A DNA stretch of 64,000 nt from IMG/VR virus record IMGVR_UViG_637000107_000010; one strand, written 5' to 3'. The stretch comes from a virus (Duplodnaviria > Heunggongvirae > Uroviricota > Caudoviricetes). Made by a program: the position numbers. This document shows, one piece after another, positions 9,001 to 15,000 of the stretch. Position 1 is the stretch's first letter. Every line of letters starts with the position of its first letter.

Positions 9001-12000
9001 GTGGATCAGCGCTTCCTGTTCGGCCAGGCGCTGTTTCAGCAAGGAAGATGTCGTCAGAAGAGATGTCGTTCATAAGCCCGTATTTTACCGGGCTTATTCT
9101 GTGACAACCAGGATAAAGAGATTTACAGCATGGTCAGGGAGGTCAGCAGCCGCTTAGGCTGTCGCCAGTCGATACCTTCCAGCAGCATCGCCAGCTGCGC
9201 CTGCGTAAGGAACACTTTGCCATCACGGGCTGACGGCCAGGCGAAGCGCCCACGCTCCAGCCGTTTGGTCAGGAGGCACAGTCCGTCACCGGTGGACCAC
9301 AGCAGTTTAACCTGACTGCCGCTGCGGCCCCGGAAAATGAAAACATGGCCGGACATGGGATCGTCTTTCAGCGCCGTTTGTACTTTCGCAGCCAGGCCGT
9401 TGAAGCCATTTCTCATATCGGTGATACCGGCAACCAGCCAAATTTTGGTCCCGGAAGGTAACGGGATCATCGCTTCAGTTCCTGTATCAGCAGAGTCAGG
9501 AGCTTTTCGCTGACATTGCCATTGAAGCGGAGCGTCCCGTGCCGGAACGTTACCTCACAGCTGATACTGAGGGTTTCCGGGTCCTCTGCGANCGATTCTG
9601 GCTGTTCGGCAGCTGCATCGANAGTCACAGGAAGTAGCTGGGGGCTCTCTGAAGAAGGTAATAGCAGCTTTCCCTCGCGCCATTGTTGTCGCCATTTGAA
9701 CAACAGATTTGCGTTAATGCCATTTTCAAGAGCAAGTTTTGAGATGGATATCCCGGGTTCACAGGAGGCAGCAACGAGCTGCTGTTTAAATTCGGGAGGA
9801 TAATTAGGGCAGCCTTTTCGCCTGCCGGGAGTCACATTTTTCTGCATATCTGATACTTTGGTTCCCACTACTTATTTGGTGGACACCACTTTGTCTAATT
9901 CGTCAGATTCTGACCAGACGGTTCAGGCTGTACGCTTACCTGATGTCTCACCGGCGCTGGTATCGAAGGTCACCGATGCCGTTATGGAGCAGGTAGTCGA
10001 ATGGCAAAACCGGCCACTGGATGCGGTCTATCCCATTGTTTATCTTGACTGTATTGTCCTGAAGGTTCGGCAGGACAGTCGCGTAATCAATAAATCCGTA
10101 TTCCTCGCACTGGGTATCAATATCGAAGGCCAGAAAGAGTTACTGGGTATGTGGCTGGCCGAAAACGAGGGAGCGAAGTTCTGGCTCAATGTGCTGACTG
10201 AACTAAAAAACCGCGGCCTGAACGATATTCTCATAGCCTGTGTCGACGGGCTGAAAGGCTTCCCGGACGCTATCAACACGGTGTATCCGGAAGCCCGCAT
10301 CCAGCTGTGCATCGTGCATATGGTGCGCAACAGCCTGCGGTTCGTTTCCTGGAAGGACTACAAAGCCGTCACCCGCGACCTGAAAGCCATCTACCAGGCC
10401 CCCACAGAAGAAGCAGGCCAGCAGGCGCTGGAAGCGTTCGCCAGCGCCTGGGACAGTCGCTACCCGCAGATAAGCCGGAGCTGGCAGGCAAACTGGACCA
10501 ACCTGGCGATGTTCTTCGCTTACCCGGCAGATATCCGCAAAGTCATCTACACAACCAACGCCATCGAGTCGCTGAACAGCGTAATCCGGCATGCCATCAA
10601 AAAACGCAAGGTGTTCCCGACGGATGACTCAGTGAAAAAGGTCGTGTGGCTGGCAATCCAGGCGGCTTCACAGAAATGGACGATGCCACTGCGGGACTGG
10701 CGTATGGCAATGAGCCGCTTTATTATCGAGTTCGGTGACCGCCTGGACGGTCACTTCTGAGAAAAGGCATTTACACAGAATCGTGTACAGGGTCGATTTT
10801 ACTCGTTAATTAGCGAACAAACCACTCGTCAGCAGACTCCCAGGTATCTTTCAGCGTCTCCTGAACAAAAGTTTTTGCAGAATCTTTATCGGCGGTGCGA
10901 GTAACTGAAAGGCCATCGTTGCTGGTGGATTTGATGATCACTTCTACATCGTCATAACGTTTACTGACACGTCGCAGCATTTCTTGTTGCAGGGCAGGAA
11001 CAGAACCTTTTGGCATTTTGTTGATTTTGGCTGCGGGGTATCTGTGGGGCATATATGGGACATAAAAAGGCCTCAAATAAACAGCAAAATCGAGATTAGG
11101 GATTTTTAGAAAAAATACAACCATCTGAAAAAACTTAGAAAACACCCAAAAACCCACAGAATAGTAAAAAACATCTATGAATTATGGATTTCAAGAGTCA
11201 TTCAATCTAACTAATTGATAAATAAAAAATTAACTTTTCATCGCTTCGTTATGGGGCATGGTTGGGGCAAACTCGCTTAACTGTGTATTTAACAGCGTTA
11301 CCTGCGCATTATTATTTTCTGACATCCATTTCCCGTACACCTGAAACACCATTTGCGCATCTGCATGGCCCATCTGGTTTGCAATGAATGCCGGGTTAGC
11401 TCCTGCTGTTAACGACCAGCAGGCATAAGTGTGTCTCGACTGATACGATTTGCGATGGCGGATTCCGGCACGCTTTACCGCTGCGTCCCACATCTGCCTT
11501 ATTGAGTCAACGGTAAAATGGTCGCCATAATTTTTTACTTTCGCTGACACTTCAGGTTGAAAAACAAAGGTACATTTTTGTTTCTCTGTTCTGCCGAATT
11601 CTCTGAGGTGAACATCGATGATATGCTCTTTGCTCAGTCTCGTTAGTGCCATCTGACTCCGGAGAGCGTCGATTGCGGGCTTAATAAGGTGAATCACACG
11701 ATTGGTTCCCGCCTGTGTTTTTGGTACTGTAAAACGGTCTTTTGCCAGATTTCTTCTGATTATCATTCTGCCATTGCGCAAGATGGTTGCGGTTTTTCTT
11801 CATCATTTTCTTCTTCTGTTTCCTGCTTAGCAGACAGTTCGCGGTTAACTTCTTCCAGGATATCTTTTTCCGGTGTATGTCGTGCAGCAGTGAGAGTTTC
11901 CTTGCTGGGGTTCTCGTGATCAGTCTCCGTTAAGTAGGCGTTGATATACCCCTGAAGGCGTCCCGGGTAGTGATAAAACTCAGGGTGAGCGCTCCGGATA

Positions 12001-15000
12001 AGTGCAAAAATAGCGGCGCGGGAATAGTCCAGAATACCCGGGGTTGCGCGAAGTGCTGCGGACCATTCTTTGAACGGACTTTCTCTTTTCAGGACGATTT
12101 CTTTTGCGCGACGATAAACGCTGCCCGGAATTTCATAAATATTAAAATCCATCGGAAGTGTGGCTGCTGCAATCTCCACATCCAGCGTATCGAAGGTGTG
12201 TACTAAATTCGGATTGCGATCGGTTTTGTTCCCGCCACCGGCATTTGCACCGGAAGCCGTACGGGTGATACGCGAAACACGATTTCCTTTCATCCACTCT
12301 TTTGTCAGCAGACCCCGATCAGTGTAGTCAGCGTCCAGGTATGCCTCGAAAAAAGCAGTTATCAGTCCCAGGTCTGAATTACCGGGATTAGGGAAAACTT
12401 TGTCAGTGTCGCGTACCAGTTTGTGAAGGTCGCGAATCTCCAGCGGGTCGAGCAGCTTTGTTTTGTGAGAAATGGCCAAGGCAGTAACAGCCGGCAGTTC
12501 TTCCGCCCGTGCTATATGTAATGCCTGAAGTTCTTCCCGTGCAACGTGCGTTACTGGTTTTTCGCTGCCGTGTTGCGCAAGCCAGCGAATGGGCAGCTCC
12601 TGACCAGAAACCGGCAGGAGCATATTCTCCTCAATCTCCGTCATGTCTTCGCCGTTGACGTTGGTATTGTCAGTACTGGCTGGTTTCTCCTGCACGGAGG
12701 GAGAGGGCGCGATAAATACCATTGTAATGCCATCTTCCCCGCCTTTTTCGTATCGGTTGCAGAATTCGGTATCAAACACGCCTTCAGGTGGAAGGTCATT
12801 CACAACGGGTAAATGGACGCGAACGGGTTTTTTAAAGTCGTCTTCATCATAATCGTTGTCATCCATTGCGGTAATGCAGCGGGAGATGGCAACAGATAAT
12901 TTTTTTGCTGTAGTCCAGTAAAAACCACCTTTAATTCCCAGACGTTTTCTGACTTTGTCATTTTTTGCTTCGCAATATAGCGCAAATTCTTCTTTATCAG
13001 TGCTCATTGATAAACCTCATTACAGATTTAAGGGTGAACAAATCCCTGCCATTGCTGGCATTTTTAATCCGTTGGTATGGTGTTAATATGGCTGGAGGGT
13101 TATCCAGCCGGTGTTTCGTTATTCAGGTACAGCGATACTTTTTTTACCGGGAGGCATTCACCAGAAATTTTTTGCTCGTCTCTTGCCTGGAGGCAGGATT
13201 CTTTACTGGCATAAATTCCGGTAATCACATTCTGTGATTCACCCGTTATAAGAAAAACCGTCATCATCAGTGCAAATGCTGAAGTCATTGACGTTCTCCG
13301 AAAATACCAAGTTCAAGAAGAGCAATTCGGGAAAGTATGGAATTATCATTGAGCAGATAAGGCTCATATTTCCTCATGTTAATGGCATCTTCAGTAAACT
13401 CCCGGTTACTGAGCAGAACACCAATATCAAAACAACCTTCAGACGTATTAACGTTTGGTAATAACGTTTCCATTATCGCGTCCTCAACAATGAATTTTGT
13501 GATGCAGTGCCTGGTGCCTCCAGGTGACGTTAACCAGTTAACAATTAACGCCGGATACAGAGAATCCACCCATAACACTGTTTTTGGTTTTAACTGTTCC
13601 GCGTGCGCTTAGCCGCATTCACCGCATCACAAAATTCACTTTAAAAAGGGCGGCAGAGCAGCCACGGAGTAAAACTGATACCGCCAAACGTCACCAGAAA
13701 ATTGATAACAGAGGGCGTTGCAGCGGGGTTGTCACTTAAGCGTATGGTCAACCTGACAACCCGGTGTCCTCAATGGGGAAGGAATAACCCCGCCATACTT
13801 ACCGCCGCGCCATTTCGCGGAGTGCCACAACCGGAAGCGCACGTTCGAAGAAATCTAACGACAAGCCTTCTAAGGGAAAGANCTTCGCCGTACGCTTTCG
13901 CGTTATGCACTGACTTTTCAGGGAAATATCCTTTCAGTAAACTGTCAGTACCGGATTCTTATCCGTGTCCGGCGCACGACCACACGTGACAGCGTGTTGG
14001 TCTCCATTTTTAACCCAGAACCTCAATGGAGGATAAAATGCCAAACAAAAAAAGAAATCCGCTTATTGAAAAACAGATTGAATGCCTGGTAAATCAACTC
14101 AGGCAATCAGGGTTATTAAAAACTCATTCAGAGTTGAGGCTCACAGAATCAGCATTCGACGATAAATTAAATAATGTCCTTTATAATGGCATTATTGATT
14201 TTAATCGTTCTGTTGGTCGCCGCGGCCCTGCTGGTGTTTCCTTATAATTACCAGTCAATCCAGAGTGGACCGTGTTCAGCGTAAATATAACTGTACACAT
14301 CCAGATTATATTTGTGGTCTGTTAAGAACAGGCCGCAAATACATGCCGAAGCTTCCAGTGCAGCGGCTCTGTTACTGAATAACCATGTAGCAACATTCCA
14401 GCGTTTTTCTGCATCCCAGTCTTTCTCAAGGCCTGATACCATGAAGAAACCGTTAGTGTTGCCATCAAATAATTCTGTTTCCAAATTTTTAAGCAATGCC
14501 TGATGGACTCTTGCCAGGTATTCCGCCGGAATTTCGCCACGAATTCTGATGAGATTGTCATAAACAAACATGTTCCCCGCATATGGCGATTTTTCTTTCT
14601 TGTTTTTTAAACCAGCATCATGAGCAAACTGATCAATTTCTTCTTCCGTTGGTTTCGTATTGATGTTTTGCGCTGTCGTTTCTGCAATTTTATTTGCCAC
14701 ACTCTCTGAGTCGTGTTTATTTATAGACGCACAGAAATACAATCCGGTAAACGCATCGCGCACATTACGAGCCATATTATCAGTGTCTTTTTTCGTTACC
14801 GATTCCAATTCAAGTTCGTTCAGACGATGACGAAGTGTGTGTGCTGCAATCTCCTGGATTGAAGGAGGTAAATCTTTAAATTCCATCGTCAACCTCATCA
14901 GTCAGTGTTTCTGGCTAACCAGCGACGCGCGCCAGCTTCAGTTTTAAACGTTTTGCTTTTGGTATACGTCATCGCGGTGAACGTACCGTCCTGGTTGGGG

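What the first reader, a model, noticed from the sequence alone, without database searches (positions are those of the whole stretch)
11230..13007. Integrase reduced to its catalytic domain, abutting a 414-aa acidic ORF of unknown function
The tyrosine-recombinase ORF (11230..11781) has only the C-terminal catalytic region (H-x-x-R and Tyr present). Its frame is closed upstream by TGA TGA, and no arm-binding or core-binding domain exists in any frame. Instead, a continuous 1245-bp ORF in another frame overlaps it by 19 bp. Either the integrase has lost its 5' half to a foreign gene, leaving the prophage unable to excise, or the 414-aa protein is the N-terminal part of an unusually large recombinase split by a frameshift in an A-rich run.
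Basis: partly seen in the sequence, partly recalled or inferred. Interest (0 to 1): 0.6.

Follow-up and report, generated by a model that had tools for sequence, protein, structure and literature searches.

The report
Deletion scar in defective O157 prophage
The two abutting reading frames are the leftovers of one 2.3-kb deletion in prophage Sp11 of E. coli O157:H7, which joined the front half of the phage's exonuclease gene to the back part of its integrase gene; both are already annotated as pseudogenes, so this is ordinary.

Summary
The window is the junction of the tandem prophages Sp11 and Sp12 of E. coli O157:H7. The stretch is 100% identical to Sakai ECs_2216 (exonuclease pseudogene) and ECs_2217 (integrase pseudogene).

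A 99.0-99.7% identical intact prophage (strain 08_3323) has the order dicB, DUF1482, 820-aa exonuclease, 83-aa excisionase, 431-aa integrase, att, rspB. Against it, the window lacks 2,321 bp. The lost DNA holds exonuclease codons 415-820 (the whole nuclease domain), xis, and integrase codons 1-253. The integrase loss covers the arm-binding and core-binding domains and the first catalytic arginine.

The break lies at window 11766-11768, inside an imperfect 13-bp microhomology, and the fusion is out of frame.

The 414-aa "unknown" ORF is the non-catalytic N-terminal half of a RecE/ExoVIII-family protein, not a foreign gene and not part of a giant recombinase.

The junction is present in 225 of 5,426 complete E. 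coli genomes. The named ones are O157 or O157:H7, but not all were listed.

Published work already lists Sp11 as integrase-defective and excisionase-less, and found that it does not circularise. This is already known and of low interest.

The parts
11767..13007 (-). 5' remnant of a RecE/exodeoxyribonuclease VIII-family gene: codons 1-414 of an 820-codon parent (Sakai ECs_2216, annotated pseudogene). The nuclease domain is absent.
   Evidence: It is 99.5% identical over 415 aa to the first 415 residues of the intact 820-aa exonuclease of strain 08_3323. It matches Pfam Exonuc_VIII at residues 57-189 and positions 1-409/877 of NCBIfam NF007259 at 619.6 bits, below the whole-protein cut-off of 1269. 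It is 57% identical to Rac RecE over ORF residues 58-413. The parent's Rv2179c-like 3'-5' exonuclease domain lies at residues 639-810, inside the deleted part.
11763..11775 (-). Deletion junction. The crossover is at 11766-11768, with the A at 11767 shared by both parents, inside an imperfect 13-bp microhomology. The stop codon of the truncated exonuclease ORF (TGA, 11765-11763) is integrase DNA read out of frame, and it overlaps the integrase Met254 codon (ATG, 11766-11764) as ATGA.
   Evidence: blastn against the intact relative: window 13300->11767 equals L004 5951-7487 at 99.7%, and window 11775->11178 equals L004 9800-10398 at 99.0%. The base-by-base junction is shown, and the endpoints L004 7487 and 9808. 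In all other E. coli genomes the homology stops at the same bases: the exonuclease side ends at 11763 and the integrase side starts at 11775.
11230..11766 (-). 3' remnant of a Qin/mEp460-type tyrosine integrase gene: codons 254-431 plus the stop (Sakai ECs_2217, annotated pseudogene). It lacks the arm-binding and core-binding domains and catalytic Arg I.
   Evidence: Residues 254-431 of the intact 431-aa integrase align with 2 substitutions. Pfam PF00589 covers model positions 52-165/172 only. The parent's domains are Arm-DNA-bind_2 at 9-71, SAM-like at 85-190 and the catalytic domain at 206-397. R235 lies upstream of the break. The fragment is 94.9% identical to K-12 intQ and about 92% identical in DNA to the integrases of phages mEp460, Tritos, HannyBb and PhiR42_1.
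11178..11192 (.). att core (GAAATCCATAATTCA on the minus strand) at the Sp11/Sp12 boundary. The integrase-side arm of Sp11 meets the DinI-side end of Sp12 here.
   Evidence: Three-way comparison. The Sp11 int side matches the int-to-rspB junction of the intact relative up to the core. The other side matches the ydfJ-to-Sp11 junction at window 62,7xx from the core onward. Sakai annotates the prophage boundary at the same place.
13100..13473 (-). Upstream genes of the same leftward early operon: DUF1482 (ydfD-like, 13100-13288) and dicB (13285-13473). They show that the 414-aa ORF sits in its native position.
   Evidence: Pfam DUF1482. The order dicB, DUF1482, exonuclease is the same in EDL933, Sakai, the two intact relatives and K-12 Qin.
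10810..11052 (-). DinI-like gene at the end of the neighbouring prophage Sp12. It is not part of the scar and marks the other side of the att core.
   Evidence: Pfam DinI and the annotation in EDL933 and Sakai. Window 10795-11195 is 99.75% identical to the equivalent end of Sp11 next to ydfJ.

Best explanation
A single 2,321-bp internal deletion in the leftward early operon of lambdoid prophage Sp11 (E. coli O157:H7) joined codon 415 of the phage's RecE/ExoVIII-family exonuclease gene to codon 253 of its integrase gene.

The deletion removed:
- the exonuclease's C-terminal 3'-5' nuclease domain;
- the excisionase gene;
- the integrase's arm-binding domain, core-binding domain and the start of its catalytic domain, including Arg I.

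The fusion is out of frame. The exonuclease frame therefore stops at once at a TGA made of integrase DNA, and the integrase remnant has no native start. Both pieces are pseudogene remnants. The prophage is left with no means of site-specific excision and no recombination nuclease, and stays locked in tandem with Sp12 at the Qin (ydfJ/rspB) attachment site.

Shown here: the deletion, its endpoints, what was lost, and its presence in 225 complete genomes. Taken from the literature: Sp11 does not circularise. Inferred: the deletion arose by illegitimate recombination or replication slippage at the short imperfect microhomology (AATGGCAGA-TGA against AATGGAACAATGA), and neither remnant has a function.
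For: - The stretch is 100% identical to Sakai, where the two ORFs are annotated as the pseudogenes ECs_2216 (exonuclease) and ECs_2217 (integrase) at the end of Sp11. PGAP calls them 'RecE family, missing C-terminus' and 'tyrosine recombinase, missing N-terminus' in EDL933.
- The intact relative L004 has dicB, DUF1482, exo (820 aa), xis (83 aa), int (431 aa), att, rspB. A second intact example is L005.
- Both flanks are colinear at 99.7% and 99.0% with 2,321 bp missing between L004 7487 and 9808.
- None of the lost parts is found anywhere in the window.
- Arg I is upstream of the break.
- The junction is spanned in 225 of 5,426 complete genomes. Every other genome listed matches only one side, and the homology ends at the same bases.
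- The paper's tables list Sp11 as Int defective, Xis absent, general recombination defective, with no circularisation, replication or packaging (PMC2669165).
Against: Nothing contradicts the deletion. The microhomology is weak: 1 nt of exact overlap and 10 of 13 matching columns with one gap. The proposed mechanism of the deletion is therefore only plausible, not demonstrated. Loss of all function is inferred, since no expression or activity data were examined. The 414-aa ORF is open, sits behind dicB in an operon that may be transcribed, and the ATGA stop/start overlap could in principle allow some translation of the 178-aa integrase piece.
Confidence: 0.95

Rival explanations
1. The two ORFs are one unusually large recombinase whose N-terminal 414 residues were split from the catalytic domain by a frameshift in the A-rich run.
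For: Only the 19-bp overlap of the two ORFs and the A-rich sequence next to it.
Against: In intact relatives the two pieces belong to different genes separated by 2.3 kb that includes xis. The 414-aa piece is colinear with RecE, not with any recombinase. The A-rich run is 99.7% conserved exonuclease coding sequence and differs only by an in-frame GAA. The same sequence is found in 225 complete assemblies, so it is not a read error.
Confidence: 0.01
2. A foreign gene was inserted into, or replaced, the 5' half of the integrase.
For: The integrase homology ends abruptly at 11775 and unrelated coding sequence follows.
Against: The neighbouring gene is the prophage's own exonuclease in its native place after dicB and DUF1482, with 99.7% identity to the intact prophage from window 13300 through the junction. 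No extra DNA is present at the junction, only loss. No IS or other mobile-element sequence lies between the two homology blocks.
Confidence: 0.02
3. The scar is real but one or both remnants are still used. One case is a stand-alone RecE N-terminal region kept in the O157:H7 lineage. Another is a 178-aa integrase C-terminal piece translated by ATGA stop/start coupling that interferes with related integrases using the same att site.
For: The 414-aa ORF is intact and open, and sits in the early operon behind dicB. The break falls in an acidic, probably linker-like stretch. The junction allele is found in 225 complete genomes. From my own knowledge, not tested here: the long N-terminal region of Rac RecE is not needed for nuclease activity but improves linear-linear recombination.
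Against: The 225 genomes are near-clonal (>=99% identity), so retention says nothing about selection. The integrase piece lacks Arg I, about 48 residues of its catalytic domain and all DNA-binding domains. No Shine-Dalgarno-like sequence is obvious before the ATG. Curators treat both as pseudogenes.
Confidence: 0.04
4. The junction is an assembly or sequencing artefact of this window.
For: The window carries 122 scattered single N bases, which shows the record is imperfect.
Against: None of the N bases lies in 9623-13881. The identical junction occurs in 225 independently finished genomes, including Sakai and EDL933.
Confidence: 0.005

Closest known systems
ECs_2216 / ECs_2217 of prophage Sp11, E. 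coli O157:H7 Sakai (also EDL933_RS35145 / EDL933_RS09880)
   Same: Identical sequence (100% over 2,501 bp) in the same position at the Sp11/Sp12 boundary. Already annotated as an exonuclease pseudogene and an integrase pseudogene. Sp11 is published as Int-defective, Xis-less and non-excising.
   Different: Nothing differs within the finding. In Sakai an IS629 sits in the neighbouring dinI-like gene; this window, like EDL933, lacks it there.
Intact Qin-site prophage of E. coli strain 08_3323 (NZ_CP074914.1): exonuclease WP_000102117.1, excisionase WP_000005551.1, integrase WP_001206147.1
   Same: 99.7% and 99.0% DNA identity on the two sides of the scar, with the same gene order and the same att core next to rspB.
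   Different: It still has the 2,321 bp that the window lacks: exonuclease residues 415-820 with the Rv2179c-like 3'-5' exonuclease domain, xis, and integrase residues 1-253.
K-12 cryptic prophage Qin: ydfE' - IS2E - 'intQ
   Same: Same chromosomal site (rspB side) and same operon order (dicF, dicB, ydfD, truncated exonuclease, truncated integrase). intQ is 94.9% identical to the window's integrase fragment. It is a parallel case of decay of the exo-xis-int module.
   Different: It is an independent event. In K-12 an IS2 remnant sits at the break and intQ keeps residues 36-431, against 254-431 here. K-12 ydfE shows no tblastn similarity to the 414-aa ORF, so its exonuclease N-terminus is a different mosaic variant.
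Rac prophage RecE (exonuclease VIII, 866 aa) and IntR
   Same: The 414-aa ORF is 57% identical to RecE over ORF residues 58-413 (about RecE residues 50-397, worked out from the coordinates). That is the long N-terminal region outside the nuclease domain. Both share Pfam Exonuc_VIII.
   Different: RecE's nuclease domain is PD-(D/E)XK-like (DUF3799, 615-850). The parent of the window's gene instead carries a DEDD-type Rv2179c-like 3'-5' exonuclease at that place, and the window's copy has neither. IntR is only 50.6% identical to the integrase fragment over 174 aa. Rac also has recT, ralR and rcbA between recE and xis, and these are absent from the Qin-type parent.

Membership tests
Tyrosine recombinase / phage integrase (Pfam PF00589) | Sequence homology to the catalytic domain above the curated threshold | tested here: met
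   36.5 bits against a cut-off of 27.1, but only model positions 52-165 of 172 are covered. PHROG 216 integrase, E=4e-39.
Tyrosine recombinase / phage integrase (Pfam PF00589) | Complete catalytic set (Arg I, Lys, His/Tyr-x-x-Arg II, His/Trp, Tyr nucleophile) | tested here: not met
   Arg I (R235 of the parent, YTGIRPGEL) aligns with the Tn1549 Int arginine that PDB entry 6emz carries as lysine. It lies upstream of the break at residue 254. The Lys (VPKTQ), Y-Q-S-R-H, GH and QVY motifs remain.
Tyrosine recombinase / phage integrase (Pfam PF00589) | Arm-binding and core-binding (SAM-like) N-terminal domains, as in lambda-type integrases | tested here: not met
   They are present in the intact parent at 9-71 and 85-190. 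They are absent from the whole window by tblastn.
RecE / exodeoxyribonuclease VIII (NCBIfam NF007259, Pfam PF06630) | N-terminal Exonuc_VIII region | tested here: met
   PF06630, E=1.6e-34, residues 57-189. NF007259 positions 1-409/877, E=9e-186.
RecE / exodeoxyribonuclease VIII (NCBIfam NF007259, Pfam PF06630) | Full-length match above the equivalog cut-off, and a nuclease domain | tested here: not met
   619.6 bits against a cut-off of 1269. No nuclease domain is found in the 414-aa ORF. Rac RecE has DUF3799 at 615-850 and the direct parent has Rv2179c-like at 639-810.
Deletion-derived pseudogene pair (prophage decay) | A near-identical intact relative, colinear on both sides, that holds extra sequence exactly between the two remnants | tested here: met
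   L004: 99.7% and 99.0% flanks with 2,321 bp missing.
Deletion-derived pseudogene pair (prophage decay) | Loss of the function the genes provide (excision) | not testable with these tools
   Taken from the literature: the paper's tables list Sp11 with no circularisation, replication or packaging (PMC2669165).
Split or programmed-frameshift gene | The two ORFs are contiguous parts of a single protein in relatives | tested here: not met
   In relatives they are parts of two different genes with xis between them.

The most novel reading that the evidence does not exclude
The scar is not inert. The O157:H7 lineage may express a stand-alone 414-aa RecE N-terminal protein, and perhaps, through the ATGA stop/start overlap, a 178-aa integrase C-terminal piece. 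Such products could modulate recombination, or interfere with incoming mEp460/Qin-type phages that use the same att site.
Probability: 0.03. Interest if true: 0.35.

Novelty: already known. Interest (0 to 1): 0.07.

Why it matters
It matters little beyond bookkeeping. It explains at base-pair level why Sp11 has no integrase, no excisionase and no recombination nuclease, and so why it stays fixed in tandem with Sp12 and keeps its cargo (nleG effectors, sRNAs) in the O157:H7 chromosome. The junction sequence is a clean marker present in 225 of 5,426 complete E. coli genomes. For the genome scan, the lesson is that an "orphan catalytic half next to an unknown acidic ORF" in a lambdoid early-left operon should first be read as an exo-xis-int deletion.

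Tried and rejected
- The frameshift reading is rejected. Intact relatives have three separate genes, and the A-rich run is conserved coding sequence.
- The foreign-gene reading is rejected. There is no extra DNA at the junction and the gene order is native.
- I looked for the missing parts (exonuclease C-terminus, xis, integrase N-terminus) elsewhere in the window by tblastn and found none.
intQ matches at 94.9%. ydfE gives no hit to the 414-aa ORF. Rac RecE matches at 57% and IntR at 50.6%.
- An Rfam scan of the whole window found no RNA family inside 11230-13007. The nearest is DicF at 13648-13699.
- I looked for a literal H-x-x-R motif and found none, in the fragment or in the intact integrase.
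- I did not use the large protein-database searches or structure prediction. The near-identical intact relative already settles the question.
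Full report
**What is in the sequence**

On the minus strand, ORF 11763..13007 (414 aa) is followed by ORF 11230..11781 (183 aa, TTG start). The two overlap by 19 bp. In the integrase frame, the codons just upstream of the TTG are TGA TGA.

The 183-aa ORF matches Pfam Phage_integrase at 36.5 bits (cut-off 27.1), but only over model positions 52-165 of 172. The 414-aa ORF is not an orphan. It matches:
- Pfam Exonuc_VIII at E=1.6e-34;
- positions 1-409 of the 877-position NCBIfam model for exodeoxyribonuclease VIII at E=9e-186;
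- PHROG 607 at E=1e-194.

**Where the window comes from**

The stretch 10800-13300 is 100% identical to many E. coli O157:H7 chromosomes, including Sakai and EDL933.
- In Sakai the two ORFs are ECs_2216 ("exonuclease", pseudogene) and ECs_2217 ("integrase", pseudogene). They are the last features of lambda-like prophage Sp11, directly abutting prophage Sp12.
- In EDL933, NCBI's pipeline calls them "RecE family exodeoxyribonuclease, missing C-terminus" and "tyrosine-type recombinase/integrase, missing N-terminus".

**The intact relative and the deletion**

A 651-bp query across the junction splits cleanly in other E. coli genomes. Query bases 1-488 hit genes annotated as exonuclease. Bases 476-651 hit genes annotated as site-specific integrase. 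Only 224 genomes cover both.

Strain 08_3323 (locus L004) carries an intact prophage at the Qin site. Its gene order is dicB, DUF1482, an 820-aa exonuclease, an 83-aa excisionase, a 431-aa integrase, then rspB. Strain EC12 (L005) has the same order.

By blastn:
- window 13300->11767 equals L004 5951-7487 at 99.7%;
- window 11775->11178 equals L004 9800-10398 at 99.0%.

Base-by-base inspection puts the last exonuclease base at L004 7487 and the first integrase base at L004 9808, with one shared A at window 11767. The window therefore lacks 2,321 bp.

The two parental sequences at the break are AATGGCAGA-TGA (exonuclease) and AATGGAACAATGA (integrase). This is an imperfect 13-bp microhomology. 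That the deletion arose by illegitimate recombination or slippage there is my inference.

**What was lost**

The parent exonuclease has the Exonuc_VIII region at residues 57-189 and an Rv2179c-like 3'-5' exonuclease domain at 639-810. The parent excisionase is a DUF1233 protein. The parent integrase has an arm-binding domain (9-71), SAM-like core-binding domains (85-190) and the catalytic domain (206-397).

The deletion removes exonuclease residues 415-820, all of xis, and integrase residues 1-253. tblastn finds none of these parts anywhere in the 64-kb window.

**State of the integrase remnant**

True integrase sequence starts at Met254. The five codons before it in the 183-aa ORF are exonuclease DNA read in another frame.

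Aligned to the Tn1549 integrase structures, the parent's R235 (YTGIRPGEL) falls on the arginine that one PDB entry (6emz) carries as lysine. From my own knowledge, this is the first catalytic arginine. R235 lies upstream of the break and so is lost.

The lysine (VPKTQ), the second arginine, the GH motif and the tyrosine (QVYGKW) remain. There is no literal H-x-x-R in the fragment or in the intact parent; the motif is Y-Q-S-R-H.

With no DNA-binding domains, no Arg I and no native start, the fragment should be inactive. This is an inference from established knowledge of the tyrosine recombinase active site.

**State of the exonuclease remnant**

The fusion is out of frame. The exonuclease frame reads GCA GAA TGA and stops on a TGA made of integrase DNA. 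That TGA overlaps the Met254 ATG as ATGA.

The 414 residues are 99.5% identical to the parent over 415 aa, with one Glu fewer in an acidic run and a changed last residue. They are 57% identical to Rac RecE over ORF residues 58-413. This is the long N-terminal region that lies outside RecE's nuclease domain (DUF3799 at 615-850). No nuclease domain remains.

**Surroundings**

The integrase-side homology to the intact relative ends at window 11178. A 15-bp core, GAAATCCATAATTCA (window 11192->11178), is shared with the ydfJ/Sp11 junction at the far end of Sp11, near window 62,7xx. It is also shared, with one extra A, with the int/rspB junction of the intact relative. This is the att core between the two tandem prophages, at the boundary annotated in Sakai.

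The Sp11-Sp12 pair fills the Qin site between ydfJ and ynfA in Sakai.

**Distribution**

A 151-bp query centred on the junction is spanned in 225 of 5,426 complete E. coli genomes. All other listed matches cover one side only, and the homology ends at the same bases. The junction-bearing strains that are named are O157 or O157:H7. I did not list all 225.

**Literature**

Asadulghani et al. 2009 (PMC2669165) state that Int is disrupted in Sp3, Sp11 and Sp12, and that the ExoVIII-type recombination system is intact only in Sp10. Their tables list Sp11 as integration "defective", excision "absent" and general recombination "defective". They predicted that Sp11 cannot excise. Their experiments found no circularisation, replication or packaging of Sp11.

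**Comparison with known cases**

- The finding is ECs_2216/ECs_2217 itself.
- K-12 Qin shows a parallel but independent decay at the same site: ydfE', an IS2E remnant, then 'intQ. intQ is 94.9% identical to the fragment but keeps residues 36-431. ydfE shows no similarity to the 414-aa ORF.
- Sequenced phages mEp460, Tritos, HannyBb and PhiR42_1 carry genes annotated as integrase that cover the whole fragment at about 92% DNA identity.
- Several induced E. coli phages carry the exonuclease at about 92% DNA identity.

**Verdict**

It is a 2.3-kb deletion scar that produced two pseudogene remnants. These are already annotated, and their consequence, a locked prophage, is already published.

The frameshift reading is refuted. 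The reading "integrase lost its 5' half and the prophage cannot excise" is right, but the partner ORF is the phage's own truncated exonuclease, not a foreign gene.

A residual role for either remnant is not excluded, and nothing found here points to one.

Noticed in passing
L006 5318-6015 (Sakai Sp12, outside the window): Sp12, the tandem neighbour, keeps the opposite part of the same integrase family: residues 1-233, 95% identical to the intact parent, with a frame change near codons 35-41. It also has an intact xis (98.8%). Its integrase 3' end and rspAB are missing, and ynfA follows directly. Sp11 keeps residues 254-431. Neither prophage keeps residues 234-253, which hold Arg I.
   Followed up: partly
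L004 6244-8706 compared with L003 4287-6887 (Rac recE): The 820-aa Qin-type 'exonuclease' shares residues 58-623 with Rac RecE (62.5% identity) and positions 1-603 of the RecE NCBIfam model. It ends in a DEDD-type Rv2179c-like 3'-5' exonuclease domain instead of RecE's PD-(D/E)XK-like DUF3799 domain. This looks like a nuclease-domain swap on a shared long N-terminal region. The Qin-type module also has no recT.
   Followed up: partly
L008 3079-5709 (K-12 Qin): K-12 Qin shows an independent, parallel decay of the same module: a ydfE pseudogene, an IS2E remnant and an intQ pseudogene lacking about 35 N-terminal codons.
   Followed up: partly
window 11808-11822: A 3-bp in-frame difference in a GAA repeat: the window has one Glu fewer in the acidic run ETEEENDEEK than the intact relative.
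   Followed up: yes
window, whole length: 122 N bases, nearly all single, are scattered through the window, densest around 27,500-27,730, 31,000-31,250 and 59,200-59,940. None lies in 9623-13881. Their origin is unknown; they may be masking or consensus ambiguity.
   Followed up: no
window 13648-13699 (-), 26403-26595 (+), 26596-26657 (-), 20910-21084 (+), 25380-25452 and 25556-25629 (+): Rfam matches above gathering score: DicF just upstream of dicB, STnc100, AgvB (anti-GcvB sRNA), sok antitoxin, and two tRNA genes in the late region of Sp11.
   Followed up: no
window 2187-4773, 28783-30092, 38937-41376: Further copies of IS629/IS1203 (each with an ALIL frameshift pseudoknot, at 4321-4437 and 29118-29234) and of ISEc8. 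Unlike Sakai, this window has no IS629 in the dinI-like gene next to the att core, and so matches EDL933 there.
   Followed up: partly
window 10795-11195 and about 62442-62728: The DinI-side ends of Sp12 and Sp11 are about 99.7% identical up to the att core. The two tandem prophages thus share their right-end sequence, which gives a substrate for homologous recombination between them.
   Followed up: partly
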